A DNA stretch of 64,000 nucleotides from an uncultured Candidatus Saccharibacteria bacterium. Lineage in GTDB: Bacteria > Patescibacteriota > Minisyncoccia > UBA6257 > 1-14-0-10-44-23. A program made the position numbers and the translations under genes. Below, piece by piece: positions 10,329 to 52,392 of this stretch (within the stretch, counting starts at the first letter, position 1; each line of letters starts with the position of its first letter). The stretch spans positions 170,428 to 234,427 of the forward strand of contig CAYMXN010000001.1 of assembly GCA_964394435.1 (NCBI GenBank), in the 5' to 3' direction. Under the pieces are notes generated by a model. The model did not search any database. It saw nothing but the letters and a program-made list of their open reading frames with translations, and had not been told where the DNA came from.

Positions 10329-10391
10329 GTTTACGATGGGCGTAAATAAAAAGCACGCAGAGGTCGGATGACCAACTGCGTGTGAAAGGAG

Positions 10392-10823: not shown

Positions 10824-11305
10824 AGCTTGATTCCTTTTATAGGTGCTTTTCTTACCCTATGCTTTTTAAAAATATTTGTCGAGATTATAAATAAAAAAGC
10901 CGCAGGTCTCTTGTGGAGTTGCGGCAGAGTCTGATCTCGCACCTTGCGAGACAGAGGGCTCGGCGAGTGGTGAGCCTCGCCTGGTTGTTGACGGAGAGCA
11001 GCTTCATCAGGGAAGGGATCGGAAACCTAGTTTGCTGCTCGCGCGATACTTTTACCAAATGTTTCTCTTTCAAGGATCGCTCCTTGTATCCGCTTGAGGC
11101 GAACTAACCCGCGGGCTAGTTTGCGGTCCAGCACGTGGTCCTGGCTTGCTGGAGTTTAATCTGATATCGGTTGTCGCGAATCAGCGATCTTTGCGTTTTT
11201 GATTACGCTTAGATCCCGTTGCTGATAATCTTAATCATATTGAGTTATTTTTTTGCGTCAAATAAAAAACTCTGAATATGTGGGTGTATATTCAGAGTTG
11301 GTATC

Positions 11306-11602
11306 TTACGATGCGCTCGCTAGGATCAGCTTGCGTCCCGATGAGTTGCCGAGCGCGAGGGAGACAATCGCTTGCTCGCCGCTGGCGTGGAGCCGGACTT
11401 TGTACTTTGGGTCGACGAGCGTAGCGACGGGACACTTGATTCGCTGTTGACCTCGAAGATCAATCTCATACAGAGACTTTCCGCGAATCCTTTCGAGGAT
11501 GCGGGTGATTACCGGAGAGCTTGGTTCGCCATAGAGAACTAGTCTGCCTGCGGGCATATATCTCCTTTTTTGTAGGCAGAAGGGCTTCTTATAGAGTGCC
11601 AT
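11306..11602 (-). CDS. Hypothetical protein with a degenerate P-loop-like segment (LVLYGEPSSPVIT)
   Basis: A minus-strand terminator (aactctgaatat hairpin at 11262-11300) directly follows the stop. Could be a remnant of an AAA-type ATPase. Confidence 0.3.
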   Translation of the reverse strand: MALYKKPFCLQKRRYMPAGRLVLYGEPSSPVITRILERIRGKSLYEIDLRGQQRIKCPVATLVDPKYKVRLHASGEQAIVSLALGNSSGRKLILASAS

Positions 11603-11631
11603 TTTTCTCTATATTTATCCACATCCACCTA

Positions 11632-11665
11632 TCTATTGACGCTTTTTCTGCCTTTTGATACACTA
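11632..11665 (+). promoter_or_regulatory. Candidate promoter upstream of 23S rRNA (TTGACG-N17-TACACT)
   Basis: Sequence pattern about 500 nt upstream of the mature 23S 5' end. Confidence 0.3.
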
Positions 11666-12172
11666 CTGGGCATTGGTCATTAACCCACCTAATGCGAAAT
11701 AACTTATACATTGCGGCAACAAACCATTCAACCTTTTCCTAACCGGGAAAGTTTTGTATTGCGTTTGACTCGCCGCTCTGAATGAGCGGTTTTTCTTTAG
11801 ATGATTTAGTTGACTAACGAACTTTTAAAAATCCAGTTTTGCATCATCGCTCCGCAAGTTGCATCGAGAGGTGCGCGGTTCGCACATAGTGCGTTTCATA
11901 ATGCGTGTGTGATTTTGCAGAATATATAGTTTCGCGTTTTTTCTAGGGGAAAAACCGCGAGACAGTTTTGTATCACCTCATGACATCGATGGTGGTGCAA
12001 AGCAAACACGTTTTACGAGTAGCAGACACTGTTATCCGTTTGTGAAAGGTAAAACAAAAATGTTCTGGTTTACACACGCGTCGCATTGCGTGGTAAATGC
12101 AGTTCGCATTCATATATGAAGAGTATTTGAATGATCAGTTTAGACTTTTGTCGCAAGACAAAAGAAATATGT

Positions 12173-15205
<3,033 letters not shown>

Positions 15206-15371
15206 TACATATTTTTTCTGGTCTTATATGAGCACACACTTAAGAGTGTTCATATGAGATACGGAATTCTAAACTGATCATTCAAGTACTTCATCAAACA
15301 AGTACTTGTACCAATACCCCTAGAGCGCTTCAAACGCTCGTCTGAAAAACCCGTAATTGTCTTTAAGGGTT

Positions 15372-15489
15372 TCTCGGTGATTTAGTTCTGTGTGTCCCAC
15401 CTCTTCCCATTCCGAACAGAGAAGTGAAAGCACAGTTCGCTGATGATACTTACTGCAAACCGCGGTTGGGAAAGTAGGCTTCGCCGGGA
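15372..15489 (+). rRNA. rrf: 5S ribosomal RNA
   Basis: Carries ccgaacagagaagtgaaag and gggaaagtagg blocks. Terminal helix tctcggtg/cgccggga. A terminator-like hairpin plus T-run follows. Confidence 0.85.
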
Positions 15490-15594
15490 TTCCTTTGTAG
15501 AGAATTGCGGGTTTTTTGTTTGACGAAATCTTTTAGATACGATACGTTGAAGAAAGTGGGTAGCGTCTCCTTTCAATTACAAGGGGGTCTACGT

Positions 15595-27187: not shown

Positions 27188-28045
27188 ATGGAATCAGCTA
27201 ACCAATTCGATCAATTGAACCCGAACTGCTCTGCTTCTCGGCGAGCCCGCGCAGCTTTGCGCAAGATCGACAAGGAGCGTGGAGATGATACCGAGCGACG
27301 AGTGTTCGCAGCGTTTGCAAGCGACGATGATTGGTTTGTGCCGCGATGGTATAGCGCCATTGCTCGTGCAACCCCGAGCGAAGATAGTCAGGGTATTGAT
27401 TTCATCATTTACCGCACGATTGAGCCTTCTGAACTTTTCGTGCAAGTGAAGAGCTCTGATCGTGGGCGCGAAGAGTTTCAAGCTCGTAGAGAGCTGATTC
27501 CCACTCAACAGCGCCTTCCGATTGGCGTGACGGTTATCCGGAGGAGTGACTCTTCGGACGTAATTAGGCGCAAGGTGCTTGCTGCTGCCGGGGAGTCGTT
27601 GCGGCTCAAGCTTGCGTTCGCTGATTCGGCTACGCCCGAACCGGTTGTGCTGTCTGGGTCAAATCGCCTCATCCGGCAACGGTTGAATATCAACGAGTCT
27701 TTGATTTCGCACGCCGAACTCTTGCAATTTGTATTACGTGTCATTGCTGCAATTCGGTCACGTAATTGCCAAGAGTTTCGCGTGCTTGATCGGCCGACGG
27801 ATTTTTCAGTTTCCCTGGGTATCGGTCTAATCTTCGTTACCCAGCGTAACGGAAGGTTTCTTGTTCGACAGATATTAGGCGAAGATGAACTATCCGCGCT
27901 TCGAAGCCCTGCTGCTGGGCGCCTCGTTCAAATCCTTGCCGATCGCTTCATCGGTGAGGCGCAAATCAGGCATCAGCGCAGGCTTAGTAAGGATTTGCGC
28001 AGGTTCCAGAGTTACCTTAGGCGTACCGCGCCCAAGGCCGATTAG
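27188..28045 (+). CDS. Hypothetical protein (GC-rich ORFan, 285 aa)
   Basis: Strong RBS aaaggagctg. About 55% GC. No domain recognised. Confidence 0.5.
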   Translation: MESANQFDQLNPNCSASRRARAALRKIDKERGDDTERRVFAAFASDDDWFVPRWYSAIARATPSEDSQGIDFIIYRTIEPSELFVQVKSSDRGREEFQARRELIPTQQRLPIGVTVIRRSDSSDVIRRKVLAAAGESLRLKLAFADSATPEPVVLSGSNRLIRQRLNINESLISHAELLQFVLRVIAAIRSRNCQEFRVLDRPTDFSVSLGIGLIFVTQRNGRFLVRQILGEDELSALRSPAAGRLVQILADRFIGEAQIRHQRRLSKDLRRFQSYLRRTAPKAD

Positions 28046-28106
28046 TTTGTTAGGGGGGTGATGTTGTTTGCGAGTAATCGCAGCGATGTCGCCCCTTTTT
28101 TATTTT

Positions 28107-28763
28107 CTATTCAACGAGCTCACTAAAGATTACGAGGCGCTCATTGTAGCGCTTAACTGTCGAGTTCCACGTACCATTGCACGTGATTAAATTCAGTTTT
28201 CGTTTATCGGTTTTTCCAAAAATCTCATTGAGATTAGTCGAGTGTTCGTCGTAAATTTTTTTATCAGTTACGCGGAAATGTAGCGTTTTTCCATTTTCAT
28301 TTACATAAATATCATCGCCGACTGCGAGTTGGTGTAGGTTGCGAAATACGCCTGGTGTCCACCAGTACGTATCTAAATGGCCGGCCATAACCGCGTTGCC
28401 TACCTCGCCAGGCTTGGTCCCACGATTAAACCAGCCAACATCGGTATAGTTGTCTGGAATGCCCATATTTCCCTTCGAGGTTAGTCCTACGCTTTGGATA
28501 TTCGTGTTGATCGCGAGCTTTGGAATAACTAATGTGCTCCCCTCCCCAATCGGCTTATTGGCTGGCGCGATGACTGGTTGAGTTTGTGTATTTGTAATTG
28601 GAAGCGGGACCGTTGCGGTGCCGGTTGCTTGGGTTGTTTGCTGAAGTGCTGGCTGTTGAATTTCGATCTCATCCGGCGTTCCGCCCGTGGTGTACCAAAA
28701 GAGTGCGACTACCAGGTAGGCAATCACAAAACCTAGGACGAGTTTTTCGCCACGGGTATACAT
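28107..28763 (-). CDS. Sortase (transpeptidase) with N-terminal membrane anchor
   Basis: Catalytic TLxTC-type motif NLITCNG. The His-containing region AGHLD is present. Confidence 0.8.
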   Translation of the reverse strand: MYTRGEKLVLGFVIAYLVVALFWYTTGGTPDEIEIQQPALQQTTQATGTATVPLPITNTQTQPVIAPANKPIGEGSTLVIPKLAINTNIQSVGLTSKGNMGIPDNYTDVGWFNRGTKPGEVGNAVMAGHLDTYWWTPGVFRNLHQLAVGDDIYVNENGKTLHFRVTDKKIYDEHSTNLNEIFGKTDKRKLNLITCNGTWNSTVKRYNERLVIFSELVE

Positions 28764-28839
28764 AGAGGAGGCCGAATTATGAGTTATGAATTATGAGGCG
28801 AGAGTAATGGCAATGAGAAAACTCGATGCCAGAGAAAGA

Positions 28840-29841
28840 CTAGTTGCGGGACGGGGCGGTCGGCAAGGTGCTGACGGCGTAGTAAGCGAAGAGTCCTCCG
28901 ATAAGCACCCAGAGCGTGTATGCGGCGTACTCACCTGCGCTGCCGGTGTTTGGAAGTCCCGGAATGCCAGTGTTAGTACCAAGAACTTGACCACCGATTA
29001 CGTTAACGGTGCAGGTCGCAGTCTGTCCGGCGCTAGCGACGGTTACGGTTTGTGTTCCTTGTGTTGCGAAGTTAGCGGTAAAACCAGCTCCATTTGGATT
29101 AAGGATCGTTAAAACCGGGGAAGCCCACGTGTAGTTGCCATTGCCACCCATTGCGGTGAAGCTGACTGGCATACCGGCGTTGACCGTCTGGAAGTTTGGA
29201 GCACAGCTAAGCGCAGTTACCGAACCACCGTTGGCGTTGCCACCAAACTGACTGCAGGATGGGCAGTTTACGGTACCCGTTGCTGCGTTTACTATGCCGT
29301 TTAACGAGTACGCGCGGCCAATCAATGTTGCACCCTGCTTAAGGGTAATATTACCAGTCGCGAGGATTGATCCTTTGATGGTCGTTCCGCTGTTAATGGT
29401 TACGTCGCCGTTTACAACCCAGAAAATGTTTTGTGGGTTGATGTTGCTCAAAAGCGAGGTCGTGAAGAAGGTGTTGAACTCGATTGAGTTGCTGACCTTA
29501 AAAATGAATACGGCGTTGTTGTCCTGGTATGAGCTCAATTGGAGATCGCCACTAAGAAGAATTGGGCCACTGAAGCAGTACACGCCTCCGGAAGTGATCT
29601 GGCTCTGGAGACTGTTGCTGGTAAGGGCCTGGTCACAGGTTTGGCCGTTCGCAGCACTAAAAGCGGTCGCGAGATCGGTGCGGGCCTGGCTGGCTCCGGC
29701 GGTCGTTGCGTCGAGGGTCGCAAAGGTACCCGCAAGCCCTAAATTAGGGGCAAAGGCGGCATTTGCCGTGATTCCAAGGTTAGTAAGTGTTCCGACTGCC
29801 AAGACTGCTAAAAAGGCCAATTTTACGCTGTTTTTGAGCAT
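28840..29841 (-). CDS. LPXTG-anchored surface protein with a beta-helix, ice-binding-like (DUF3494-like) repeat core
   Basis: Signal peptide. Repetitive T/N/G-rich beta-solenoid-like core. C-terminal LPNTG, then a hydrophobic segment and a basic tail. Adjacent to the sortase. Confidence 0.7.
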   Translation of the reverse strand: MLKNSVKLAFLAVLAVGTLTNLGITANAAFAPNLGLAGTFATLDATTAGASQARTDLATAFSAANGQTCDQALTSNSLQSQITSGGVYCFSGPILLSGDLQLSSYQDNNAVFIFKVSNSIEFNTFFTTSLLSNINPQNIFWVVNGDVTINSGTTIKGSILATGNITLKQGATLIGRAYSLNGIVNAATGTVNCPSCSQFGGNANGGSVTALSCAPNFQTVNAGMPVSFTAMGGNGNYTWASPVLTILNPNGAGFTANFATQGTQTVTVASAGQTATCTVNVIGGQVLGTNTGIPGLPNTGSAGEYAAYTLWVLIGGLFAYYAVSTLPTAPSRN

Positions 29842-29961
29842 ATTTTTTGATGTTTTTATAATGATTTTACGTGCTTAGACGGAGGCACGTCTTATGTGTC
29901 CCTACCCTACGCTTTTTTTGAATTTTTGGCAAGGGATTAGCCTCTCGATGAAAATGGGTGC

Positions 29962-30297
29962 TTAGCCATACAATATTGCTCCTATAGTAACGGCTATGTT
30001 TATAACAAGCCAGATATATTGAGTAATAATGATTGGTTTTTCGTGATGAACATATCCGTAGATAAGCCAGATGAACGTGAGCACGCAGTACCCCGTCCAA
30101 GTGAAGATAGAGATCCCTCCTGCGTTTTTATAAATCCAAATATCAATAAGCTGAGGAATACTGACGAGCGGTCCGATAACTCCAGCGATATAAATTAAAC
30201 TGTCAATAAAACGCACTAAGTGATTCGGTGAAGGATACGGCTCGTTGTTTTTAATGATTCTTTTACGAAGATGTTGATGATGGGTTACGCCGAACAT
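29962..30297 (-). CDS. SemiSWEET/PQ-loop family small sugar transporter
   Basis: Three-TM protein with PQ motif (SIPQLIDIW) and a WLIYG block. Confidence 0.6.
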   Translation of the reverse strand: MFGVTHHQHLRKRIIKNNEPYPSPNHLVRFIDSLIYIAGVIGPLVSIPQLIDIWIYKNAGGISIFTWTGYCVLTFIWLIYGYVHHEKPIIITQYIWLVINIAVTIGAILYG

Positions 30298-30314
30298 TGG
30301 AATGAGTATGTGAA

Positions 30315-31325
30315 TTATATTCGTTTTATTTTTGCTCCCGGAGTTGCGTGCGTTGGAATGTGGAACATCGTAGCGATCTCTGAAGCGTTTAAAATCATCT
30401 GTTGGTCTGCATCAAATCGGCGGGAGAGTATGTGCTGACTCGCTTTCGCGCTTGAGCGTGGACGCATCATTTTAAACTCGTTATAACAAACACCTCCGGA
30501 AGCACTTACGTATTTATGCTCCAGTCGCTCGAGCATTTCTTGTGCATTTTTGGGAGTGAGTGAGCTTACTAACACGCGAGCATTAACTGCGAATAGCGGC
30601 TCGGCGATTTTCTTTTCTAAAATGTGCATCGTGTCGCACGCAAGCAAAAACTTTGGATCGATAAGCGGCGAAGAAACGTACGTGCCGCCGGCAAGCGTGT
30701 TAAGGAGGTGTGATATGTCTTGCTGGAGTTGTTTTGGAGCTGGTTTGATGACCCACTGTAGGACGGCTGCCTCTCCGATCGCGTTTATTTTTCCGAGTTC
30801 GTTTATGATTGCGTGAAATGCGCTCGTATTTGGATCGGTCGGGAGCGCAAATGGAATCGCATATGGTTTGAGTGATTTGAGGTATCCTACCTCGAGCTCA
30901 CCTTCGTTTAGGATGCCAGCGGCATTAGTTGTCGATCCATCAAGCCAAAGATCGTAATCATCAGCAGTGGTTATGTGTGATCCAGGAAGTTCTTTTTCAA
31001 TAATTTGCGTAAGTTTAGCGGCATGTATGCGTGGAATGAGCGCGTAGAAATGTATCTCTTCGCCGATAGCGTGAATAGCCGCCTCAAAGACAACTGTTGT
31101 ATTGAGCTGCGCTACCTGATGCAGTATGCGTCGCATTGGTTCGATCTCCCCTTCGTTTCCATCGCGCGTATATGGATCGCTTGATTTTTTCGGTACTTGA
31201 ATAAGGAGCATCGTTAGACGATGCATCTTTGTTGTGAAATGGCGAAATAATTGCCCGGCGATATAGAGTGTCGCTCCGAGAAAAAGAAGCCCTAATAAAA
31301 GATACGCGCTCCCCAGGATCGTCAT
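30315..31325 (-). CDS. Hypothetical membrane-anchored protein (336 aa)
   Basis: N-terminal TM helix. No recognisable domain. Confidence 0.5.
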   Translation of the reverse strand: MTILGSAYLLLGLLFLGATLYIAGQLFRHFTTKMHRLTMLLIQVPKKSSDPYTRDGNEGEIEPMRRILHQVAQLNTTVVFEAAIHAIGEEIHFYALIPRIHAAKLTQIIEKELPGSHITTADDYDLWLDGSTTNAAGILNEGELEVGYLKSLKPYAIPFALPTDPNTSAFHAIINELGKINAIGEAAVLQWVIKPAPKQLQQDISHLLNTLAGGTYVSSPLIDPKFLLACDTMHILEKKIAEPLFAVNARVLVSSLTPKNAQEMLERLEHKYVSASGGVCYNEFKMMRPRSSAKASQHILSRRFDADQQMILNASEIATMFHIPTHATPGAKIKRI

Positions 31326-31377
31326 ATAGAAATTATATCATAGGAGTTGCGCGCATATTTAAGGGATTTCTTGTGAT

Positions 31378-31406
31378 TTGACAAAACCTTTTCTATGAGT
31401 TATTAT
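31378..31406 (+). promoter_or_regulatory. Near-consensus sigma70 promoter TTGACA-N17-TATTAT
   Basis: Seen in the sequence, 40 nt upstream of the 43-aa basic ORF. Confidence 0.5.
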
Positions 31407-31446
31407 GAAATCTCTCGTCAGCAACCCCAAATGGAGGCGTTTCGGC

Positions 31447-31578
31447 ATGGTCCCTCGGAAGCGAAGGAGTCGGTTGCCCGGGCGGAACCGAAGTAAGCAT
31501 GCACACGCGGTGCGGGCGGCGGAGGCCGAGAAGAAGCGCGAAGCCGAGCTCAAGAAGGACGAGCGGTCGGCGAAGTAG
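31447..31578 (+). CDS. Small highly basic protein (43 aa; MVPRKRRSRLPGRNRSKHAHAV...); possibly ribosomal protein bL32-like
   Basis: RBS ggagg. Strong promoter and strong terminator. The N-terminal RS..G..RS.H.A motif loosely resembles bL32. Confidence 0.35.
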   Translation: MVPRKRRSRLPGRNRSKHAHAVRAAEAEKKREAELKKDERSAK

Positions 31579-31592
31579 TCTGACTTTTCGGC

Positions 31593-31640
31593 GTCGGAGC
31601 GGCGGAATACCTATTCCTGTCCGCTCCTTTTTTATTTCAG
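31593..31640 (+). terminator. Intrinsic terminator (ggagcgg...ccgctcc plus tttttta)
   Basis: Hairpin plus T-run. Confidence 0.55.
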
Positions 31641-31710
31641 CTATATTTGACAGGGTATTTTTGAATCGGTACGTTAATATAAGTTCCTTCTCTTTCCGGA
31701 GGTTTGTCGA

Positions 31711-31965
31711 ATGAGCTCTCTTCGCTATTCTCGGAGTGCTCGCAGCGTACCTGCTCGGACGAGCGCGACCAAGCGTTACGCGCTTAAGCGAGACGGTAAG
31801 TTTCAGGTACGTGCGGCCGATGGAAAGCCTCGCGATTGCCGTGACAAGGAAAAGCCAACCCCTTTTAGTGACTATGATTTGGCGATGAAGACGGCACGTT
31901 ATCTCAATGGCCAGCTCGCCGCTGATGACGCGATGTTTGAGGTCGTCGACTATCCGACTGATTGA
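31711..31965 (+). CDS. Hypothetical protein (84 aa, GC-rich)
   Basis: RBS ggagg. A terminator follows. Confidence 0.45.
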   Translation: MSSLRYSRSARSVPARTSATKRYALKRDGKFQVRAADGKPRDCRDKEKPTPFSDYDLAMKTARYLNGQLAADDAMFEVVDYPTD

Positions 31966-31968
31966 TAA

Positions 31969-32005
31969 ATAGGCGCAACTCTATGAGTTGCGCCGTTTTA
32001 TTTTC
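31969..32005. terminator. Intrinsic terminator (ggcgcaactc-tatg-agttgcgcc plus gttttatttt)
   Basis: Perfect 10-bp stem between convergent genes. Confidence 0.55.
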
Positions 32006-36766: not shown

Positions 36767-38050
36767 TTATTTGATTTCTTTGACTCCGGAGTATTTTTGC
36801 AGAACTTTTGGAATTTTAATCGTACCTTTTTCAGTTTGATTGTTTTCCATAATCGCAATGAGGATACGGCCGATGGCAAATGCAGTAGCGTCGTTGGTGT
36901 GTGCGTATACCGTTGTTCCGTCTGCTTTGCGAATCTTGGTCGCGAGGCGTCGGGTTTGATAATCGGTCATTAAGTCAGAGGTGTGTGTCTCACGATACCT
37001 ATCCTGACCAGGCATCCACGTCTCCATATCTACCTGGCGAGCGTCCGGCTTACCCATATCACCCGTACAGATTTGTACAACTTGGTATGGAAGCTCTAAT
37101 TGCTGTAGGAGATACTCCTGAATCGCAATAAACAAGCGCTGCTCCTTTTCGGAGTCTTCTGGAAGTGTAAATGATTCCATTTCGAGCTTGTCGAATTGAT
37201 GCATACGCAAGATGCCTTTTGTATCTTTGCCATAACTACCGGCTTCACGGCGGAAGCTAGTCGAGTACCCAATGTACCGAATTGGCATATCTTCAGCCTT
37301 AAGGATCTCGTCCATATACATCGAACCAAGGGTGTGTTCAGCACTACCAATCAAGTAGAGGTCGTCTTGATCGAAGTGATAGCGCTCATCTTTATCGGCC
37401 GGGCTTAAGCGCGCCATACGAACATACGGCTCTGGTTTAATCATTACTGGCGGGATTACCGGTACGAATAACTTCGGGTTAAATCCTTTTTCGACGCTAT
37501 TCGCTAATTTCTTCATCACCTTTTCGTCGGTAAGCGTATCAAAGACAAACTGAATAATACCCATTTGAAGCTTGGCGAGCGCTCCTTTGAGATACACAAA
37601 GCGAGCACCAGAAACTTTAACGGCGCGCTCGCTGTCGAGCAGTCCGAGTTTTTCGCCGAGCGCTACGTGATCGAGTGGCTTAAAGGAAAACTTGGTCGGC
37701 TCACCCCACTTTCGAATTACTTTGTTTTCTGACTCATCTTTACCAGCTGGTACGTCCGGATGGAGTAGGTTTGGAATCTGGTATACGAGCTCGATGCGCT
37801 TTGCTTCGAGCGACTCAACTTGCTTTTCCTTTTCGCTAATTTCGGTTTTCAGCTTTTTCGCCTCTTCGATTTTTCGCTCCGCTCCATATTTTTTCTGTAG
37901 GGCGCGAGCTTGCTCAACTTCATTTAAGAGTGAGCGCCACTGCTTATCGACGGTTAAGAACTCATCGACAATCGCGCTATTCATATTGCGCAACTTCATC
38001 GAGTCTTTGTATGGCTGTGGATTTTCGCGAAGGTGTTCGATGTCGATCAT
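36767..38050 (-). CDS. serS: Seryl-tRNA synthetase
   Basis: N-terminal coiled coil and class II motifs (FRREAGSYGKDTKGILRMHQFDKLE). Confidence 0.92.
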   Translation of the reverse strand: MIDIEHLRENPQPYKDSMKLRNMNSAIVDEFLTVDKQWRSLLNEVEQARALQKKYGAERKIEEAKKLKTEISEKEKQVESLEAKRIELVYQIPNLLHPDVPAGKDESENKVIRKWGEPTKFSFKPLDHVALGEKLGLLDSERAVKVSGARFVYLKGALAKLQMGIIQFVFDTLTDEKVMKKLANSVEKGFNPKLFVPVIPPVMIKPEPYVRMARLSPADKDERYHFDQDDLYLIGSAEHTLGSMYMDEILKAEDMPIRYIGYSTSFRREAGSYGKDTKGILRMHQFDKLEMESFTLPEDSEKEQRLFIAIQEYLLQQLELPYQVVQICTGDMGKPDARQVDMETWMPGQDRYRETHTSDLMTDYQTRRLATKIRKADGTTVYAHTNDATAFAIGRILIAIMENNQTEKGTIKIPKVLQKYSGVKEIK

Positions 38051-38059: not shown

Positions 38060-39511
38060 TTAGTTATCTTTTTTAGGACGAAGGATTGGGAAGAAGACGG
38101 TTTCACGGACTGGTTTATCAACGAGAATTGAGAAGAGTCGTTCGGAAATGCCAAAGCCGTGGTTTGGTGGCATACCGTACTCCATTGCTTCGAGGTAGTC
38201 CTCATCGAGACGCTGCGCCTCTGGGTCGCCAGCCTCACGGAGCTTTTGCTGCTCCTCAAATCGAGCACGCTGATCTTGTGGGTCGTTTAATTCGGAAAAT
38301 CCTTTGCCGAGCTCGGTACCGGCGGCTACTACCTGGAAACGAGCAACCTTATTACTGCCCGGCGAAAGACGCTTAGCAAGTGGCTCGATATCAACTGGTG
38401 GGTTGATTAAGAAGCATGGCTGAACTAACTTGTGGCGAATCTTTTTAAAGATTGCGTCAGTGATACGTCCACGGCCAATATGTTTTGTCGTATCGATTCC
38501 CTGCTTTTTCGCATGCTCATAGAGCTGCTCGTCGGTCGCCGTATTGAGGTCGATACCCGTTTCTTTCTTAAAGATATCGAAGTAGTCGACACGCCCCCAT
38601 TTCTTTCCCCAATCGATTGTGATATCGCCACGCTTAGTTTTTAGCGTGCCCATCGTTTGCTTAATAACGTATTTATAGAGTTTTTCGATAAACTTCATAC
38701 CACCTTCGTAGTCCTGGTACGCCCAGTAGTATTCGAGCTGGGTGTAGTCCTGGAGATGTTCGGCGTCAATGCCTTCGTTGCGGAAAATGCGCCCGATTTC
38801 AAATACTTTTTCAAAACCACCGACAAGCAAACGCTTGAGCGGAAGCTCGAGTGAGATACGTAGTGAAAGGTCTATGTCGAGTGCGTTCATATGAGTCATA
38901 AACGGTTCGGCATCAGCACCACCGGGGGTTTGTTCGAGTACCGGCGTCTCCACCTCTAAGAATCCGTTTTTAATTAAAAACGTGCGGAATGCGGCCCAGA
39001 ATTTTGTTTTCCTTTTGAATGTTTCGCGAAGCTCCGGGTGAAGCATTAAGTCGAGGTAGCGCTTGCGCAAGCGAGTCTCGACGTCGGCGATACCGTACCA
39101 CTCGGAAGGAATTGGGCGAATTGATTTAGTGATTGTGCGGAACGAGGTCGCCTGTAAGCTCTTCTCTCCTTTTTTCGTTACAAACGCGGTGCCGGTCGCC
39201 TCGACAAAGTCGCCGATATCAGTGTTATTGCGCACGAGCTCGAAGTTTTTAGTCGCGTCTTTAGAGAGAACAAGTTGAATCGCTCCGTTTTCATCTTTGA
39301 GGTCGAGAAATGAGATACCGCCCTGTCCACGCAACGCAAAAATACGCCCAACTAGGGTTATTTTTTTCTTTTTGTTGTTATAGCTCTTCCAATCAGCGAG
39401 GAGTTCGCTGATGGTGTGCGTGCGCTTAACTGACGCGGGATACGAGTCATATCCTGCTTCAGTTAAATTATCTTTTTTCTTGAGTCGCTCTTTGATGATA
39501 TCTTCGAGCAT
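38060..39511 (-). CDS. lysS: Lysyl-tRNA synthetase (class II)
   Basis: OB-fold N-domain, then FEIGRIFRNEGID and class II motifs. Confidence 0.92.
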   Translation of the reverse strand: MLEDIIKERLKKKDNLTEAGYDSYPASVKRTHTISELLADWKSYNNKKKKITLVGRIFALRGQGGISFLDLKDENGAIQLVLSKDATKNFELVRNNTDIGDFVEATGTAFVTKKGEKSLQATSFRTITKSIRPIPSEWYGIADVETRLRKRYLDLMLHPELRETFKRKTKFWAAFRTFLIKNGFLEVETPVLEQTPGGADAEPFMTHMNALDIDLSLRISLELPLKRLLVGGFEKVFEIGRIFRNEGIDAEHLQDYTQLEYYWAYQDYEGGMKFIEKLYKYVIKQTMGTLKTKRGDITIDWGKKWGRVDYFDIFKKETGIDLNTATDEQLYEHAKKQGIDTTKHIGRGRITDAIFKKIRHKLVQPCFLINPPVDIEPLAKRLSPGSNKVARFQVVAAGTELGKGFSELNDPQDQRARFEEQQKLREAGDPEAQRLDEDYLEAMEYGMPPNHGFGISERLFSILVDKPVRETVFFPILRPKKDN

Positions 39512-44410: not shown

Positions 44411-44794
44411 AGAAGTTTTCTAAGATGAATGTTGATCGGTGTGGTGCCGTCAGAGGGATATCGGGATTAGGGTTGGTGTTTCTGCCGGATTAGTATCGGC
44501 AGTTGTGGCAGTTCGCTTTCTTTCAATTACTTGCGCTACACACAGCTCTAGTTGTCCGCCTCATATGCCAGCTTCGCAGCGGCAGGCTCGATCAGTCACT
44601 TGTCTTAGACACTTTTTTGTTCGTCGGTTTGCAGTCGCTTCTTGTTTCAAATTTCTTTAAAGCGAGAAGCGACTGCAACACAACTATGTTCAACGTTCTG
44701 AAATAAGTATAACAGAAACGAGTTGACCTGTGCGTCAACTCGTTGTGGAAAAGTCTATTAGGCCTTATGTTTCAAGGTTTGTCGAGGCCTTCAC

Positions 44795-45934
44795 TTATCG
44801 AACTTCAGCGCCAAATTGCTTTTTCGTTTCTTCGATTACTCTGTTTTGGATCGGCTCAACTTCTTCAGTGAGAAGCGTGCGCTCGTTGCTGCGATAAATT
44901 ATGCGATAGGTGTAGCTCATCTTGTCGGCACCAAATTTTTTATCATTCTCGTACTTATCAAGGAGTGAAACTTCTTCGACGAGCTCGCCACCGATTTCAC
45001 GAATTAAATCGAAGTAGTCATTTGGAACAAATTTCTTACTCACCACAAACGAGATGTCGCGAGTGATTGGCGGATACTTACTTACTTCTTTAAATTTATT
45101 TCCGAGCTTGAGCTGTTTTACTACGCGCGGATCAGTTGACCAGAGCAAGCGAATATCTGGGAGCTCCATGCTGATAATTGCCAAGCGCTCTAGACCAAAT
45201 CCGAACGCCCACCCGTTGTACCCTTCGAGTCCAAAGTTTTTCAGTACTGATTTTTTCGGCATACCTCCACCTAAAATCTCAATCCACCGATCGCCGATTT
45301 TTACCTCAACTTGAAGTGATGGGTCGGTGTACGGAAATGTATCATCAAGAAAACGATACTCAATATTTTTCCCAAAAAGCGTTTCAACAATTTCTGATAA
45401 TACGTTTCGCAGTGAGTCGAGTGGCATCACGCCCATAGAGTCCGGTTGTAAGTACCACGCACCGAACTGATGGAAGACGTTCATGTGACGATTATCAATT
45501 TCATCTTTGCGATAGACTTTTCCATAACACGTAGTTCCTACCGCCTCCCCTTTTGCGATTCGATTTTTAACATCAGCATCGTTGAGGTAGTAATACCACA
45601 TCACCGTGTCGTGTGTACGCAAAATATTTTTATCGTTTACATAGTACGTGTCAGACTTACTACGCGCTGGGTGGTCTGCAGGAAAATCAAATAAGTCGAA
45701 TGTAATACTTGCTGGTACTACCTCTGGAATGACAATGTTATCTAAATTTTTGAGCGCGTTAGTAGCTCGAGCTCGCGCGACAATTTCATACAATGGACTT
45801 TCCGGAGTACGAGAAAGATCGGGCATCGCTAGATAGCGCTTTTCACGAAGCGCTTCTGCGTCGGTTCGCTTTTCTAAATCCTTAAGTGCGGTCGCTTGAT
45901 CTTGTGTATCAATAATGATTTCTTTGTGTGACAT
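44795..45934 (-). CDS. pheS: Phenylalanyl-tRNA synthetase alpha-type catalytic subunit fused to a C-terminal FDX-ACB-like anticodon-binding domain
   Basis: Class II motifs FPYTDPS and GFGLERLAI, followed by about 95 aa (YPPITRDISFVV...SYTYRIIYRS...TLTEEEV) that resemble the FDX-ACB domain of PheT and mitochondrial PheRS. Confidence 0.85.
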   Translation of the reverse strand: MSHKEIIIDTQDQATALKDLEKRTDAEALREKRYLAMPDLSRTPESPLYEIVARARATNALKNLDNIVIPEVVPASITFDLFDFPADHPARSKSDTYYVNDKNILRTHDTVMWYYYLNDADVKNRIAKGEAVGTTCYGKVYRKDEIDNRHMNVFHQFGAWYLQPDSMGVMPLDSLRNVLSEIVETLFGKNIEYRFLDDTFPYTDPSLQVEVKIGDRWIEILGGGMPKKSVLKNFGLEGYNGWAFGFGLERLAIISMELPDIRLLWSTDPRVVKQLKLGNKFKEVSKYPPITRDISFVVSKKFVPNDYFDLIREIGGELVEEVSLLDKYENDKKFGADKMSYTYRIIYRSNERTLLTEEVEPIQNRVIEETKKQFGAEVR

Positions 45935-45953: not shown

Positions 45954-46028
45954 TGGTGGCTGGGGAGAGGATCGAACTCTCGACCTTGGCCTTATGAAAG
46001 CCCTGCTCTACCACTGAGCTACCCAGCC
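45954..46028 (-). tRNA. tRNA-Met (anticodon CAT), elongator-type G1-C72; could also be tRNA-Ile2 (lysidine)
   Basis: Manual fold gives acceptor GGCTGGG/CCCAGCC, D arm GCTC-AGTGGTA-GAGC, anticodon loop TTCATAA, T arm GAGAG-TTCGATC-CTCTC. CCA is encoded. Confidence 0.8.
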
Positions 46029-46120
46029 AGTACGTATACGATAATAGCGATTTCTCCTTCCTTTGTAAATAAAAGCCCCGGGCCGAAGCGCAAGGCTTGA
46101 GTCGGGGCTTGTAAATCTAC

Positions 46121-46555
46121 TTAGTGCTGCGGAATTCCAGAAATGAACGAGATGAGCCAGACGCCCCAGGCGACGAGCGAAAAGCGGTTGAAGAGTTCGG
46201 CGCAACGGCCGTGTGTTCGTAATGTCGCATCGAGTGCCCAGCCGAAGTGCAGACCCATAATGAGTACCGAGGCGAGCCCGGTGGTCGTGTGGAGATCCCA
46301 CGTCCACCCCTTGGAGTTTAGGCTACAGACAAAGATGGTCGCGCTCACGTCGAGTGTGAGTGCGATACCAAACACCCACAGCATCCAGCGACGCAGCTCT
46401 AACACCTTCTTCCGCTGAATGAAGTGAGTCCAGATGACCGTCGAGTACAGGAGAAGCGCCACGACAAACAGCAGCTCGAGACGGGGCATAGTGGATTCCT
46501 TTCGATGAACTAAGTGCAGGTTAGCGCAAGGTGGACTTTTGGGCAATCTTTTCAA
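46121..46555 (-). CDS. Hypothetical membrane protein (GC-rich); likely start at the internal Met MPRLELLF
   Basis: Several TM helices. A minus-strand terminator (agccccg...cggggct plus U-run) follows at about 46045-46110. Confidence 0.45.
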   Translation of the reverse strand: MKRLPKSPPCANLHLVHRKESTMPRLELLFVVALLLYSTVIWTHFIQRKKVLELRRWMLWVFGIALTLDVSATIFVCSLNSKGWTWDLHTTTGLASVLIMGLHFGWALDATLRTHGRCAELFNRFSLVAWGVWLISFISGIPQH

Positions 46556-47032: not shown

Positions 47033-47812
47033 ATGACTAAGCTCCGAGGTGTTCTTGTCGGGAAACCGGGCGATTTTCGTCCGAATCACTACCCGAGTCG
47101 CGAGAAACTCATCTCTTTTGTTGCCCAGCTACTTCCTCCTGGTGTTCGAAAGGTGTACTTCACTCGCATCGAGGGTACAAGTACTAAGCTTGCGAGTCAG
47201 GACAGCTTCGTGGCGACGACGCCGGCGAATTGGTTTCTTGAAAGTAGAGATACCGTTGACGGTGCCGTCATTCACGGGCGAAATTCGGCGATATTTGTCG
47301 CAAATGCCGATTGTCCCCTGCTAGCCGTTCATTCTGGCGACAAGCTGATGGTGCTTCATTGCGCGTTTCGTTGCTTGGTTGGCGAAAATGGCGAGAGCAT
47401 TATTCTCGCGTCGCTTATGAAGCACTTCCCTGATCCACGGATGATTGACAACATCTTTTTTGGATTCGGGGCCGGCCCTTGCTGCTTTGGACAGAAAGAG
47501 TCGCTCGAAAACCCCGATATTCGTAAAAACTTGCCCGTCCAGGCTATTCATAGGGCGACGTGTGGTCCCCGCAAGGGTAGCCCCTCGGTCGATCTGTGTC
47601 GCTTGGCAGTGATGCATTTAGAGCAAGTATTTGCGGGGACTGCTGGGCTACGACCGGGAGTCGCGAAAATCGATGCGAGATGTACCGCCTGCGAAGAGCG
47701 GGATAATGGTGGAGCTGGCGCATACTGGTCGCATGTCTGGGACGGCAGACCAGTTCCCGGAAAGTGTGAAACAGTTGCTGGGAGAAACGGCGCCTTCTTC
47801 TGGATCTCCTGA
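47033..47812 (+). CDS. YfiH/PgeF (DUF152, LACC1-like) family protein, tentative
   Basis: VANADCPLLAVH resembles the family motif ADC-P-L. Conserved Cys/His residues. Strong RBS aaggagg. GC-rich. Confidence 0.5.
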   Translation: MTKLRGVLVGKPGDFRPNHYPSREKLISFVAQLLPPGVRKVYFTRIEGTSTKLASQDSFVATTPANWFLESRDTVDGAVIHGRNSAIFVANADCPLLAVHSGDKLMVLHCAFRCLVGENGESIILASLMKHFPDPRMIDNIFFGFGAGPCCFGQKESLENPDIRKNLPVQAIHRATCGPRKGSPSVDLCRLAVMHLEQVFAGTAGLRPGVAKIDARCTACEERDNGGAGAYWSHVWDGRPVPGKCETVAGRNGAFFWIS

Positions 47813-50949: not shown

Positions 50950-52392
50950 CTATGAGTTTTCGTACAAACGCCCGAGTCCTAGTATATCTGCTTCTCTCCA
51001 AGGCTTGCCCATAAGCTGAAATCCGATTGGCAAGCTACCCGCTGGGACACGCGCCGGGATAGAGATCGCCGGAATACCCGCGAGGTTGGCTGGAATAGTA
51101 AAAATATCTGAAAGATACATTGAGAGTGGGTCACTCGCCTTTTCGCCGATCTTAAATGGGACAGTTGGGGTGACTGGAGTAAGAATCGCGTCCACTTCTT
51201 TAAACGCGTTAGTAAAGTCGTCAGTGATATACTCTTTTACTTCGAGCGCTTTCTTGTAGTACGCGTCGTAGTAGCCCGATGAAAGTACAAACGTGCCAAG
51301 CATAATACGTCGTTTAGTTTCCGGACCAAATCCGAGACCCTTCGAGCTCTTATACAGACCGGCGAGATCGTGTTGGCTACGCTCTACACCAGCGACATTG
51401 GCGTACCGAATACCGTCAAAACGCGAGAGGTTGGAGCTCGCTTCGGCTGGTTGAATAATGTAGTAGCAGGAAAGTGCGTACTTGGTGTGCGGGAGGCTGA
51501 TTTGTTTAAACTTCACTCCGAGTTTTTCATAGGTTTTAATAACTTCATCAATCGCTTGGCGCACTGCTGGCTCAATACCGTCGATAAAGTACTCTTTTGG
51601 CAATCCGAGCGTCATCCCCTTTAGTTTTTCAAAGTCGGGTGCGAGCAAGTCTGCGCCATATTGCGTATCAGCCGTCGTATTGTCATATGGGTCCTTACCC
51701 TTAAGTGCATTAAACAAAATAGCAGCGTCTTCTACGGTTTTAGTAAATGGGCCTATTTGATCGAGACTCGAAGAGAGTGCGATTAATCCCGAGCGTGAGG
51801 TTGAGCCGTAGGTCGGCTTGAGTCCAACTACGCCACAGAAAGCGGCTGGCTGACGGATTGAGCCTCCGGTATCTGAACCAAGACTCGCAGTCGCCATATC
51901 AGCGGCAACCGCAGCAGCACTTCCTCCCGAGCTTCCGCCAGGAACGCGTGAAAGGTCGTGTGGGTTTTTAGTCGGCCCGAAAGCGGAGTTTTCAGTCGAA
52001 CTACCCATCGCAAACTCATCGAGATTAGTTTTACCGATAAATACAGCGTTTTCCTCTTTAAGTCGTTTAATCACAAACGCGTCATAAACCGCGGTGTAAT
52101 TTTCGAGCATTTTTGATGACGCGGTTGCTTTTTCACCGGTAATTAAAATATTGTCCTTGATAGCAATCGGAACGCCAGCAAGTGGCGAAATAGTAGTGCC
52201 GCTTGCGATGAGCTCGTCTACTTTTTTGGCTTGCTCAAGTGCAGCCTGATCATTATGCGCAAGATATGCGTGAATATCCCCGTCTTTTGCGTTGATTTGA
52301 GCTATATATGCCTGCGCAACTTCAGTTGCTGTAAACTCTTTTTTTACCAGCCCATCATGAGTTGCTTTGATTGAAAGATGTGTAAGATCCAT
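50950..52392 (-). CDS. gatA: Glutamyl-tRNA(Gln) amidotransferase subunit A
   Basis: Amidase signature region (GGSSGGSAAAVAA). 480 aa. Follows gatC. Confidence 0.92.
   Translation of the reverse strand: MDLTHLSIKATHDGLVKKEFTATEVAQAYIAQINAKDGDIHAYLAHNDQAALEQAKKVDELIASGTTISPLAGVPIAIKDNILITGEKATASSKMLENYTAVYDAFVIKRLKEENAVFIGKTNLDEFAMGSSTENSAFGPTKNPHDLSRVPGGSSGGSAAAVAADMATASLGSDTGGSIRQPAAFCGVVGLKPTYGSTSRSGLIALSSSLDQIGPFTKTVEDAAILFNALKGKDPYDNTTADTQYGADLLAPDFEKLKGMTLGLPKEYFIDGIEPAVRQAIDEVIKTYEKLGVKFKQISLPHTKYALSCYYIIQPAEASSNLSRFDGIRYANVAGVERSQHDLAGLYKSSKGLGFGPETKRRIMLGTFVLSSGYYDAYYKKALEVKEYITDDFTNAFKEVDAILTPVTPTVPFKIGEKASDPLSMYLSDIFTIPANLAGIPAISIPARVPAGSLPIGFQLMGKPWREADILGLGRLYENS

What the first reader, a model, noticed from the sequence alone, without database searches (positions are those of the whole stretch)
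44795..45934. PheS catalytic domain fused to an FDX-ACB-like C-terminal domain (mitochondrial-type monomeric PheRS architecture?)
After class II motif 3 (GFGLERLAI) the protein continues for about 95 residues (KYPPITRDISFVVSKKF...SYTYRIIYRSNERTLLTEEVEPIQNRVIEE). This resembles the ferredoxin-fold anticodon-binding domain normally found at the C-terminus of bacterial PheT or mitochondrial monomeric PheRS, not on bacterial PheS. The gene is transcribed immediately downstream of tRNA-Met(CAT).
Basis: partly seen in the sequence, partly recalled or inferred. Interest (0 to 1): 0.55.

Follow-up and report, generated by a model that had tools for sequence, protein, structure and literature searches.

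The report
Bacterial one-chain mitochondrial-type PheRS
This gene encodes a single-chain phenylalanyl-tRNA synthetase built like the human mitochondrial enzyme. It appears to replace the usual two-subunit bacterial enzyme in a large branch of the ultra-small Patescibacteria (CPR), which I found described in no paper.

Summary
ORF 44795-45934 (-) encodes 379 aa with a class II PheRS core (PF01409, aa 70-274, E 1e-47) fused directly to a full FDX-ACB domain (PF03147, aa 285-379, E 6e-25).

Its best solved relative and best fold match is human mitochondrial PheRS (3CMQ, TM 0.74).

The family is large: more than 6000 clustered proteins and at least 287 GTDB species. It is confined to Parcubacteria-type Patescibacteria, is uniformly 374-379 aa, and is more conserved than neighbouring aaRS genes.

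No pheT or second pheS lies in the window or in 1.27 Mb of related loci.

In a public marker table, I read 231 CPR genomes. Of these, 32 have FDX-ACB without the PheT B5 domain, and 31 of those 32 also lack the PheS N-terminal domain (p = 4e-11). A Paceibacteria genome with canonical pheST has no fused gene.

Catalytic residues are invariant except for one swap specific to this clade: motif-2 E/D to G158 together with T to D109, in 120 of 120 sequences.

The best reading is a housekeeping monomeric PheRS without an editing domain that displaced PheST.

In a rough tree, the bacterial fused clade is sister to the eukaryotic/giant-virus clade, not nested inside it.

NCBI calls these proteins hypothetical, and I found no paper on them. 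Absence of pheT in this particular genome was not tested.

The parts
44795..45934 (-). CDS for a 379-aa single-chain PheRS of mitochondrial type (PheS core plus FDX-ACB). The stop codon is 44795-44797.
   Evidence: ORF list; Pfam PF01409 plus PF03147; PDB sequence match to human mtPheRS, E 1.5e-58; fold match to 3CMQ, TM 0.74.
45743..45934 (-). N-terminal helical region, aa 1-64. It has no Pfam match and is not the PheS coiled-coil domain PF02912.
   Evidence: The model shows helices at aa 11-22, 26-36 and 47-56. Pfam finds nothing N-terminal of aa 70.
45113..45727 (-). Class II PheRS catalytic domain, aa 70-274.
   Evidence: PF01409, E 1.1e-47, profile positions 41-245 of 246. Catalytic residues are invariant in 120/120 relatives.
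45455..45526 (-). Motif 2, YGKVYRKDEIDNRHMNVFHQFGAW (aa 137-160). It holds R142 (E. coli R195) and Q156, and G158 (nt 45461-45463) where other PheRS have Glu or Asp.
   Evidence: Alignment and residue census; coordinates.
45602..45619 (-). RTHDTV loop (aa 106-111). D109 (nt 45608-45610) is an Asp specific to this clade and covaries perfectly with G158.
   Evidence: Clade A has D109 plus G158 in 120/120 sequences. The other 140 fused sequences compared (clade B and the eukaryote/giant-virus type), the sister P0121 and E. coli PheS all have T/M/A at 109 and D/E at 158.
45317..45343 (-). DTFPYTDPS (aa 198-206), the Phe-ring sandwich motif, equivalent to E. coli F248-P-F250-T251.
   Evidence: F200, P201, Y202, T203 and S206 are invariant in clade A.
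45176..45214 (-). Motif 3, GWAFGFGLERLAI (aa 241-253). It holds A243 (E. coli A294, which sets the pocket size) and R250 (E. coli R301).
44798..45082 (-). FDX-ACB (ferredoxin-fold anticodon-binding) domain, aa 285-379.
   Evidence: PF03147, E 5.7e-25, profile positions 1-94 of 94. It aligns to the C-terminus of E. coli PheT, residues 696-794, and to the PheT model TIGR00472, positions 692-798.
45954..46028 (-). tRNA-Met(CAT), 19 nt upstream on the same strand and probably co-transcribed.
   Evidence: ARAGORN; Rfam tRNA, 65.7 bits; sequence. The linkage is kept in 14/84 related loci.
46041..46069 (-). Promoter-like site TTTACA-17-TATTAT (10 of 12 matches), 12 nt upstream of the tRNA. This is a consensus match only.
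   Evidence: The number of sites in the region is not above that of shuffled sequence.
44717..44744 (-). Terminator-like hairpin (11 pairs followed by a T-rich tail), 51 nt after the stop codon. This is a consensus match only.

Best explanation
The gene encodes the cell's housekeeping phenylalanyl-tRNA synthetase, in a single-chain form.

The class II catalytic core activates Phe with ATP and transfers it to tRNA-Phe. The C-terminal FDX-ACB domain, which in ordinary bacteria sits at the end of the beta subunit PheT, reads the GAA anticodon in cis. This is how human mitochondrial PheRS (FARS2) works.

The protein has no B3/4 editing domain, no B5 domain and no PheS N-terminal coiled coil. The enzyme would therefore work without a beta subunit and without cis editing of Tyr-tRNA-Phe.

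In this branch of Patescibacteria (Parcubacteria/Paceibacteria and Doudnabacteria) it has displaced the canonical (alpha-beta)2 PheST enzyme.

In the window's subclade (clade A), the carboxylate that normally follows motif 2 (E. coli E210) has been lost (G158), and an Asp has appeared in the H-x-T loop (D109). I read this as a relocation of the group that holds the substrate's alpha-amino group.

Shown: the architecture, the fold, the conservation, the phyletic distribution, the absence of pheT nearby, and the genome-level anticorrelation with PheT and PheS-N markers.

Inferred: Phe specificity, the monomeric state, the sole-PheRS status in this genome, and the role of D109.
For: Architecture and fold:
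- The two Pfam domains are contiguous.
- The best PDB sequence hits are six human mtPheRS entries, E about 1e-58, well ahead of bacterial PheS at 1e-27.
- The model has pLDDT 91.2 and pTM 0.80, and 3CMQ is the top fold hit (TM 0.74/0.70, E 6e-36).

Active site:
- The residues equivalent to E. coli H149, R152, R195, H202, Q208, F248, T251, E268, A294 and R301 are unchanged in at least 119 of 120 clade A sequences; F250 is an invariant Tyr there.
- D109 and G158 covary perfectly against 260 other sequences.

Essential-gene behaviour:
- More than 6000 clustered homologs, at 66-97% identity among the best 120.
- At least 287 GTDB species.
- One copy per locus and a length of 374-379 aa.
- Higher identity than neighbouring SerRS, LysRS-like, MetAP and ADK genes in the same genome pairs, for example 81% against 64/67/62/45% in L006.
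- The gene sits in a window rich in translation genes (MetRS, LeuRS, SerRS, a class IIb aaRS, GatA).

No canonical partner:
- tblastn with E. coli PheT and PheS finds no B3/4-B5 region and no second PheS in the window or in 84 loci totalling 1.27 Mb.
- The anvi'o CPR marker table (supplement of PMC8672522) holds 797 genomes, of which I read 231. Of these, 32 are FDX-ACB+/B5-, and 31 of those 32 also lack Phe_tRNA-synt_N. Among 112 FDX-ACB+/B5+ genomes, 74 have it (Fisher p = 4e-11).
- Conversely, the annotated Minisyncoccus genome has pheT plus pheS and only one FDX-ACB protein (PMC9600506 supplement).
Against: - Absence of pheS and pheT in the window's own genome, or in any named complete genome that carries this gene, was not tested directly.
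- The marker table is anonymous and binary. It cannot link a given genome to clade A, and it cannot exclude co-occurrence in B5+ genomes. In 38 of 112 of those, the PheS N-terminal marker is missing, unexplained.
- The protein scores below the curated cutoffs of both TIGR00469 pheS_mito (225.3 against 258.35) and NF051887 SrmL (228.9 against 300).
- NCBI curators call a related family a 'mystery ligase', so PheS-like proteins with this architecture and an unknown role do exist.
- The motif-2 acidic residue, conserved in all other PheRS compared, is Gly here.
- No biochemical data exist.
Confidence: 0.8

Rival explanations
1. It is an accessory PheS-like paralog of the kind NCBI calls the 'PheS-related mystery ligase SrmL'. 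It would coexist with a canonical PheST encoded elsewhere in the genome and would do something other than bulk Phe-tRNA-Phe synthesis, such as charging a special tRNA or making an aminoacyl donor for another pathway.
For: - SrmL (NF051887) is the top NCBIfam hit by E-value (8.9e-68, 228.9 bits), aligned over profile positions 33-345 of 349.
- Canonical pheST does exist in some Paceibacteria.
- The marker table cannot exclude co-occurrence in B5+ genomes.
- The motif-2 Glu is replaced by Gly.
Against: - The score is 71 bits below the SrmL cutoff. No protein examined here reaches it; the best is 271.
- 31 of 32 FDX-ACB+/B5- CPR genomes also lack the PheS N-terminal domain, so they would have no PheRS at all if this protein were not it.
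- The gene is more conserved than neighbouring essential aaRS genes.
- Genomes of about 0.7-0.8 Mb rarely keep redundant synthetases.
- The one fully tabulated genome with canonical pheST has no fused gene.
Confidence: 0.12
2. It is an active aminoacyl-tRNA synthetase whose amino-acid specificity has shifted away from Phe, because the residue that anchors the alpha-amino group changed (E/D158 to G, with D109 new).
For: The swap is fixed in 120/120 clade A sequences and absent from every other clade compared. This position binds the substrate's amino group in known PheRS structures (my recollection of the T. thermophilus alpha-E220 literature, not tested here).
Against: - All residues that shape the phenyl pocket (F200, Y202, T203, A243) and bind ATP are kept.
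- The paired nature of the change looks compensatory.
- The genomes concerned show no other PheRS markers, so Phe-tRNA-Phe must come from this enzyme.
- The sister clade B and P0121 keep the Asp and are otherwise 39-58% identical.
Confidence: 0.05
3. It is foreign or artefactual. It would be either a recent transfer from a eukaryote or giant virus or a contaminating or chimeric contig, rather than a resident bacterial gene.
For: The closest characterised relatives are eukaryotic. IMG/VR contigs of giant-virus type carry similar fused genes.
Against: - The exact protein occurs on 6 independent contigs from 4 runs with the same neighbours.
- At least 287 species carry it in bacterial housekeeping contexts.
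- In the NJ tree the CPR clade has 100% support and groups with other bacterial fused proteins (88%), outside the eukaryote/giant-virus clade (90%).
- Identity to the eukaryote/giant-virus group is only 33-34%.
- The window's GC content is even at 0.44-0.49.
Confidence: 0.03

Closest known systems
Mitochondrial phenylalanyl-tRNA synthetase (human FARS2; PDB 3CMQ and 3TUP; family 'PheRS-M' in AARS Online, PMC11580382; TIGR00469 pheS_mito)
   Same: The two-domain order is the same: PheS-type class II core, then FDX-ACB, with no beta subunit domains. FARS2 is the best sequence match in the PDB (E 1.5e-58) and the best fold match (TM 0.74 over 386 columns, 33% identity). Motifs 2 and 3 and the FP[FY]T and GWAFG signatures are shared.
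   Different: - It is bacterial and cytoplasmic, with no targeting presequence.
- It lacks the insertion of about 30-40 residues between motifs 2 and 3 seen in the long, presumably eukaryotic, forms. It has an insertion of about 10 residues after the RTHDT loop.
- It scores 225.3 bits, below the 258.35 cutoff of TIGR00469.
- The motif-2 Glu is Gly, and there is a new Asp at position 109.
- It falls in a separate bacterial clade in the NJ tree.
NCBIfam NF051887, 'PheS-related mystery ligase SrmL'
   Same: The alignment covers nearly the full length (profile positions 33-345 of 349, query aa 64-369). SrmL evidently has the same core-plus-C-terminal-domain layout.
   Different: The score is 228.9 bits against a cutoff of 300, so by NCBI's own criterion it is not a member. 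None of the 31 relatives scanned reaches the cutoff. I could not establish what SrmL proper is or where it occurs; no paper in the library mentions it.
Canonical bacterial PheRS (alpha-beta)2: PheS (TIGR00468) and PheT (TIGR00472), for example E. coli 3PCO and T. thermophilus 1PYS
   Same: The catalytic core is homologous to PheS (30% identity to E. coli PheS residues 131-327). The C-terminal domain is homologous to the last domain of PheT (28% identity to E. coli PheT residues 696-794).
   Different: - The two pieces are on one chain.
- There is no PheS N-terminal coiled coil.
- None of the PheT domains B1 to B7 is present, so there is no B3/4 editing site and no B5 domain.
- There is no adjacent pheT.
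- Scores are 145 against a cutoff of 237 (PheS) and 82 against a cutoff of 403 (PheT).
Fused PheRS genes on giant-virus-type IMG/VR contigs (L095-L123), and the short 'pheS_mito' proteins without a presequence from metagenomes (P0137, P0140, P0142, P0146 and others)
   Same: They have the same contiguous core plus FDX-ACB and a similar size of about 340-375 aa.
   Different: They pass the TIGR00469 cutoff (260-308 bits), cluster with the long, eukaryote-like forms (90% bootstrap), keep D/E at position 158, and are only about 33% identical to the CPR clade.

Membership tests
Monomeric mitochondrial-type PheRS (PheRS-M / FARS2) | PheS-type class II catalytic core | tested here: met
   PF01409, E 1.1e-47, 163 bits against a cutoff of 19.8.
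Monomeric mitochondrial-type PheRS (PheRS-M / FARS2) | FDX-ACB anticodon-binding domain fused to the C-terminus of the same chain | tested here: met
   PF03147, aa 285-379, full profile coverage, E 5.7e-25.
Monomeric mitochondrial-type PheRS (PheRS-M / FARS2) | Overall fold and domain packing as in the solved structure 3CMQ | tested here: met
   Model pLDDT 91.2. Foldseek top hit is 3CMQ, with TM 0.74/0.70 over 386 columns.
Monomeric mitochondrial-type PheRS (PheRS-M / FARS2) | Score at or above the curated cutoff of TIGR00469 (258.35 bits) | tested here: not met
   225.3 bits. The sister protein P0121 (264) and several clade B proteins (261-267) do pass.
Monomeric mitochondrial-type PheRS (PheRS-M / FARS2) | Works without a beta subunit: no PheT in the same genome or compartment | tested here: inconclusive
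   No pheT in the window or in 1.27 Mb of related loci. In the marker table, 31 of 32 FDX-ACB+/B5- CPR genomes also lack PheS-N. The window's own genome was not examined.
Monomeric mitochondrial-type PheRS (PheRS-M / FARS2) | Full set of PheRS catalytic residues | tested here: inconclusive
   All residues checked are kept except the motif-2 acidic residue (G158), which is paired with a new D109. Whether D109 substitutes for it is an inference.
Monomeric mitochondrial-type PheRS (PheRS-M / FARS2) | Monomeric state and Phe-tRNA-Phe synthesis | not testable with these tools
   Requires purified protein.
NCBIfam NF051887 SrmL (PheS-related mystery ligase) | Score at or above the curated equivalog cutoff (300 bits) | tested here: not met
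   228.9 bits. The best score among the relatives scanned is 271.1.
Canonical bacterial PheS (TIGR00468) | Score at or above 237.45 bits, and the N-terminal coiled-coil domain PF02912 | tested here: not met
   145 bits. There is no PF02912 hit.
Canonical bacterial PheS (TIGR00468) | pheT adjacent or elsewhere in the genome as an obligate partner | tested here: not met
   The downstream neighbour is a convergent Pyr_redox_2 gene. No B3/4-B5 match occurs in the window or in 84 loci. 'Elsewhere in the genome' was not tested directly.
Bacterial PheT (TIGR00472) | B3/4, B5 and core-like domains in addition to FDX-ACB | tested here: not met
   Only profile positions 692-798 of 798 match, at 82.3 bits against a cutoff of 402.65.

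The most novel reading that the evidence does not exclude
The fusion of the alpha core with B8 (FDX-ACB) that defines mitochondrial PheRS may not be a eukaryotic invention.

It would have arisen, or at least long existed, in bacteria, where a whole radiation (Parcubacteria/Doudnabacteria) uses it as the only cytoplasmic PheRS with no editing domain. Eukaryotes, and through them giant viruses, would have obtained FARS2 from such a bacterial lineage.

This would also make these CPR bacteria the first cellular lineage whose main translation system runs on a PheRS with no editing domain and no beta subunit.
Probability: 0.3. Interest if true: 0.8.

Novelty: new member of a known kind. Interest (0 to 1): 0.62.

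Why it matters
**Textbook picture.** From my own knowledge, the standard account is that bacterial and archaeal/eukaryotic cytosolic PheRS are (alpha-beta)2 heterotetramers, and that the monomeric form is an organellar peculiarity.

**If the reading here is right:**
- A very large bacterial radiation has dispensed with PheT, including its editing site against Tyr and m-Tyr. This bears on translational fidelity in ultra-small symbionts.
- The standard marker genes pheT (TIGR00472), B5 and Phe_tRNA-synt_N are systematically absent from these lineages. That biases completeness estimates and marker-based phylogenies.
- Thousands of copies of an essential synthetase are labelled 'hypothetical protein' in NCBI records.
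- The bacterial fused clade gives a concrete outgroup for testing where mitochondrial FARS2 came from.
- The D109/G158 swap is a natural experiment on how class II synthetases hold the substrate's amino group.

Tried and rejected
**Literature.** Ten full-text searches found no paper on a bacterial or CPR monomeric PheRS, or on SrmL. The terms included SrmL, monomeric or mitochondrial-type PheRS, pheT with CPR, FDX-ACB with Patescibacteria, PheRS-M, and the origin of FARS2. Mukai et al. (PMC5370408) note only that many CPR PheT proteins lack the B2 domain. The AARS Online and NAR papers list PheRS-M without any bacterial members.

**Getting a Paceibacteria PheT sequence.** I wanted one to search for co-occurrence by contig fingerprint or locus tag, but no tool route yielded it. 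The viral-contig scan returned only ordinary bacterial pheST operons and giant-virus-type fused genes.

**Taxon names for distant representatives.** Cluster look-ups gave almost none.

**Other supplements.** PMC12239599 held nothing relevant. One PMC10936435 table was truncated in storage.

**Structure libraries.** afdb50 was unavailable. BFVD holds no fused PheRS.

**Other ideas considered and dropped.**
- infC-rpmI-rplT synteny as a pointer to pheST: these genes are in neither the window nor the related loci.
- A functional link to tRNA-Met: the adjacency is kept in only 14 of 84 loci.
- The stand-alone B2-like gene as a general partner: it is restricted to Doudnabacteria-labelled genomes and is absent from the window.
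Full report
**1. The observation**

Pfam finds two contiguous domains:
- the PheRS-type class II core, PF01409 (aa 70-274, E 1.1e-47, 163 bits against a cutoff of 19.8);

Motif 3 (GWAFGFGLERLAI) is aa 241-253. tRNA-Met(CAT) lies at 45954-46028 on the same strand, 19 nt upstream of the ATG.

**2. What the protein resembles**

- *Solved structures, by sequence.* The six best matches are all human mitochondrial PheRS (E about 1.5e-58), with both the core and the C-terminal domain aligned. Bacterial PheS chains follow at 1e-27 and cover only the core. PheT chains match only through their last ~100 residues.
- *Fold.* An AlphaFold model built on 30 homologs is confident (mean pLDDT 91.2, pTM 0.80). 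Its best fold match in the PDB is 3CMQ, the closed form of human mtPheRS, over 386 columns (TM 0.74/0.70, 33% identity, E 6e-36).
- *NCBIfam.* Two near-equal hits are both below their curated cutoffs: NF051887 'PheS-related mystery ligase SrmL' (228.9 bits, cutoff 300) and TIGR00469 pheS_mito (225.3 bits, cutoff 258.35). Canonical PheS scores 145 (cutoff 237). PheT matches only at profile positions 692-798.

By architecture and fold this is a PheRS-M-type enzyme. By curated thresholds it belongs to no named family.

**3. Who has it**

- A search of 5.8 billion clustered proteins gave more than 6000 hits. The best 120 are all 349-415 aa, carry both Pfam domains, and are 66-97% identical. Where they are named they come from Patescibacteria (Kaiser-, Nomura-, Lipton- and Giovannonibacteria, Paceibacterota). 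NCBI calls them 'hypothetical protein'; JGI calls them 'PheRS alpha chain'.
- The exact protein occurs on six contigs from four sequencing runs, with the same neighbours.
- In one-genome-per-species GTDB contigs, at least 287 species encode a relative. The best 80 include three complete chromosomes: CP174359.1 at 721 kb, OY970354.1 at 829 kb and OZ246418.1 at 808 kb.
- Gene length from the first ATG is 374-379 aa in 54 of 84 loci, and nearly all the rest lie within about 10-20 codons of that.
- A second clade ('B') of about 380 aa and about 39% identity occurs in Wolfe-, Staskawicz-, Nealson- and Portnoybacteria. There it lies among housekeeping genes such as gyrB, nusG, rplK and gatCAB. Its members score at or just around the pheS_mito cutoff (245-267 bits).
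- At 50% clustering, only 204 representatives in 1.84 billion proteins reach E 1e-30, so the fused superfamily is compact.

**4. Is it the cell's PheRS or an extra paralog?**

*Local evidence.*
- tblastn with E. coli PheT and PheS finds no B3/4-B5 region and no second PheS in the 64-kb window.
- The same search finds none in 84 related loci totalling 1.27 Mb. This is a weak test, because only about 1-2 chance hits would be expected if a pheST operon lay at a random place in each genome.

*Genome-level evidence from two published tables.*

(a) The full annotation table of the cultured Paceibacteria member Minisyncoccus (PMX_810_sub; PMC9600506, supplement file 5) lists adjacent canonical pheT (B3/4, CLM, B5, FDX-ACB) and pheS. 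It contains PF03147 only once. A genome with canonical PheST therefore has no fused gene.

(b) The anvi'o presence/absence table of single-copy domains covers 797 CPR genomes (PMC8672522, supplement file 1). I read 231 rows.
- 32 genomes have FDX-ACB but no B5. Canonical PheT cannot produce that state, because both domains sit on one protein.
- 31 of those 32 also lack the PheS N-terminal domain.
- Among 112 FDX-ACB+/B5+ genomes, 74 have the PheS N-terminal domain (Fisher p = 4e-11).
- Among the 99 most complete genomes in the first 178 rows, the figures are 16 of 17 against 41 of 55 (p = 5e-7).
- In that subset, the FDX+/B5- genomes also tend to lack the enolase markers and more often carry PNPase and RBFA than the B5+ genomes. 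This suggests a related lineage rather than random gaps.

*Conservation.* The protein is more conserved than its housekeeping neighbours in the same genome pairs. In L006 it is 81% identical, against 64% for SerRS, 67% for the LysRS-like gene, 62% for MetAP and 45% for ADK.

Taken together, the fused enzyme most likely replaces PheST. The table is anonymous and binary. I could not examine the window's own genome or the named complete chromosomes, so this step remains an inference.

**5. Active site**

I aligned 120 clade A sequences, 120 clade B sequences, 20 sequences of the eukaryote/giant-virus type, and E. coli PheS.
- The residues equivalent to E. coli H149, R152, R195 (motif 2), H202, Q208, F248, T251, E268, A294 and R301 (motif 3) are unchanged in at least 119 of 120 clade A sequences. 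F250 is an invariant Tyr in clade A.
- The one exception is the acidic residue two positions after the motif-2 Gln (E. coli E210). It is D or E in every other sequence but Gly in 120/120 clade A proteins.
- Position 109 in the R-T-H-x-T loop is Asp in 120/120 clade A proteins and T/M/A everywhere else, including the nearest sister P0121 at 58% identity.
- In known PheRS structures both segments line the site that holds the substrate's alpha-amino group. This is my recollection of the T. thermophilus alpha-H178/S180/Q218/E220 literature and was not tested here.

I read the paired change as a relocation of the carboxylate, not a loss of function.

**6. Gene neighbourhood**

On the minus strand the order is as follows:
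- the stop of an unannotated 144-aa ORF;
- a terminator-like hairpin (46089-46075);
- a promoter-like TTTACA-17-TATTAT (46069-46041);
- tRNA-Met (46028-45954);
- a 19-nt spacer with no obvious Shine-Dalgarno sequence;
- the ATG at 45934 and the stop at 44795;
- a terminator-like hairpin (44744-44717).

These are consensus matches only. The tRNA-Met linkage is found in 14 of 84 loci, so it is a local feature.

The window is otherwise typical CPR housekeeping DNA:
- 23S and 5S rRNA genes without a 16S gene;
- MetRS, LeuRS, SerRS, a class IIb aaRS and a truncated class IIa aaRS;
- GatA, LigA, MurD, MurG, FtsW and GreA.

**7. Relationship to FARS2**

I built a neighbour-joining tree with 35 sequences, 341 columns, Kimura distances and 200 bootstraps. 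It is a rough method.
- All fused proteins group together against canonical PheS (100%).
- They split into a bacterial fused clade (CPR clade A, P0121, P0124/P0126 and P0131; 88%) and a clade holding the long, presequence-bearing eukaryote-like forms together with short forms lacking a presequence (90%).
- The short forms are encoded on large IMG/VR contigs, several of them named as giant-virus MAGs. In 27 of 29 such loci the core and FDX-ACB are contiguous.

The CPR genes are therefore not a recent capture from eukaryotes. The direction of the ancient relationship is open.

**8. Comparison with what is known, and novelty**

- *How it works.* Like FARS2: one chain, cis anticodon reading by FDX-ACB, and no editing domain.
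- *Membership.* It meets the architectural and fold criteria of PheRS-M. It fails the curated TIGR00469 and SrmL score cutoffs, and it differs at one catalytic position.
- *Literature.* I found no paper in the searchable library that describes a bacterial monomeric PheRS (ten searches, listed under Tried and rejected). I cannot exclude a report in a journal outside the library. Database curators (Pfam architectures, JGI names, NCBI's SrmL model) have clearly seen related proteins.
- *Rating.* New member of a known kind, with an unusual biological setting: it appears to be the main cytoplasmic PheRS of a large bacterial radiation.
- *Scores.* Interest 0.62. Confidence in the main explanation 0.8.

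Noticed in passing
L026:4631-5035, L042:9580-9990, L049:2691-3089, L051:9566-9976, L072:9496-9906, L077:9541-9900, L083:9519-9935, L085:9537-9968 (not in the window): A stand-alone gene of about 135 aa for a tRNA_bind OB-fold (PF01588) lies immediately upstream of the fused PheRS gene, on the same strand, in 8 of 80 loci. It is 34-41% identical to the B2 domain of E. coli PheT and carries a KHPNADRLRV motif. The family has 668 proteins, almost all labelled Candidatus Doudnabacteria, and JGI names them 'PheRS beta chain'. It may be a surviving fragment of PheT acting in trans.
   Followed up: partly
L124-L126:10001-11146; proteins P0287-P0405: There is a second, distinct CPR clade of fused PheRS: about 380 aa, about 39% identical to the window protein, with Asp kept at motif-2 position 158. 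It occurs in Wolfe-, Staskawicz-, Nealson- and Portnoybacteria, sits in housekeeping contexts, and scores right at the pheS_mito cutoff.
   Followed up: partly
L095-L123 (IMG/VR contigs up to 519 kb, some named GVMAG): Contigs of giant-virus type encode contiguous PheS-core plus FDX-ACB proteins of about 340-375 aa with no presequence. These pass the mitochondrial PheRS model cutoff and cluster with eukaryote-like forms. The BFVD viral structure library contains no such protein.
   Followed up: partly
window 12194-15490 (+): A 23S rRNA gene (12194-15207) and a 5S rRNA gene (15372-15490) are present, but Rfam finds no 16S rRNA gene anywhere in the window. About 1.9 kb upstream (10287-12193) has no ORF of 150 aa or more.
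   Followed up: no
window 1-64000, switch near 28000-32000: All long ORFs up to about 28 kb are on the + strand, and nearly all after that are on the - strand, so the two sets converge. GC skew falls from about +0.2 to about 0 near 32 kb. This could be a replication terminus or a rearrangement boundary.
   Followed up: no
window 47033-47812 (+) and 46121-46555 (-): Two ORFs flanking the tRNA-Met/PheRS unit (259 aa and 144 aa) have no Pfam hit. They also have no tblastn match in the 80 loci from other species, although the 259-aa ORF is called as a gene on an independent contig of the same organism (L001).
   Followed up: partly
window 1-948, 5004-6476, 7818-10286, 36767-38050, 38060-39511, 50950-52392: The window is unusually rich in aminoacylation genes: a truncated class IIa aaRS, MetRS, LeuRS, SerRS, a class IIb (Lys/Asp/Asn-type) aaRS and GatA, in addition to the PheRS gene.
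   Followed up: no
anvi'o CPR marker table (PMC8672522, supplement 1), rows c0001-c0178 and c0745-c0797: 38 of 112 CPR genomes that have both B5 and FDX-ACB lack the PheS N-terminal domain marker. They may have divergent canonical PheS proteins, or they may hold PheT together with a fused PheRS. The binary table cannot distinguish these.
   Followed up: no
record titles of L006-L085; names of P0075, P0124, P0417, P0457: Many MAGs that carry these Parcubacteria-type genes are titled 'uncultured Candidatus Saccharibacteria', and single proteins are labelled Anaplasmataceae, Oligoflexia, Binatia or Verrucomicrobiae. Taxon labels on these records look unreliable, probably from mis-binning or default naming.
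   Followed up: no
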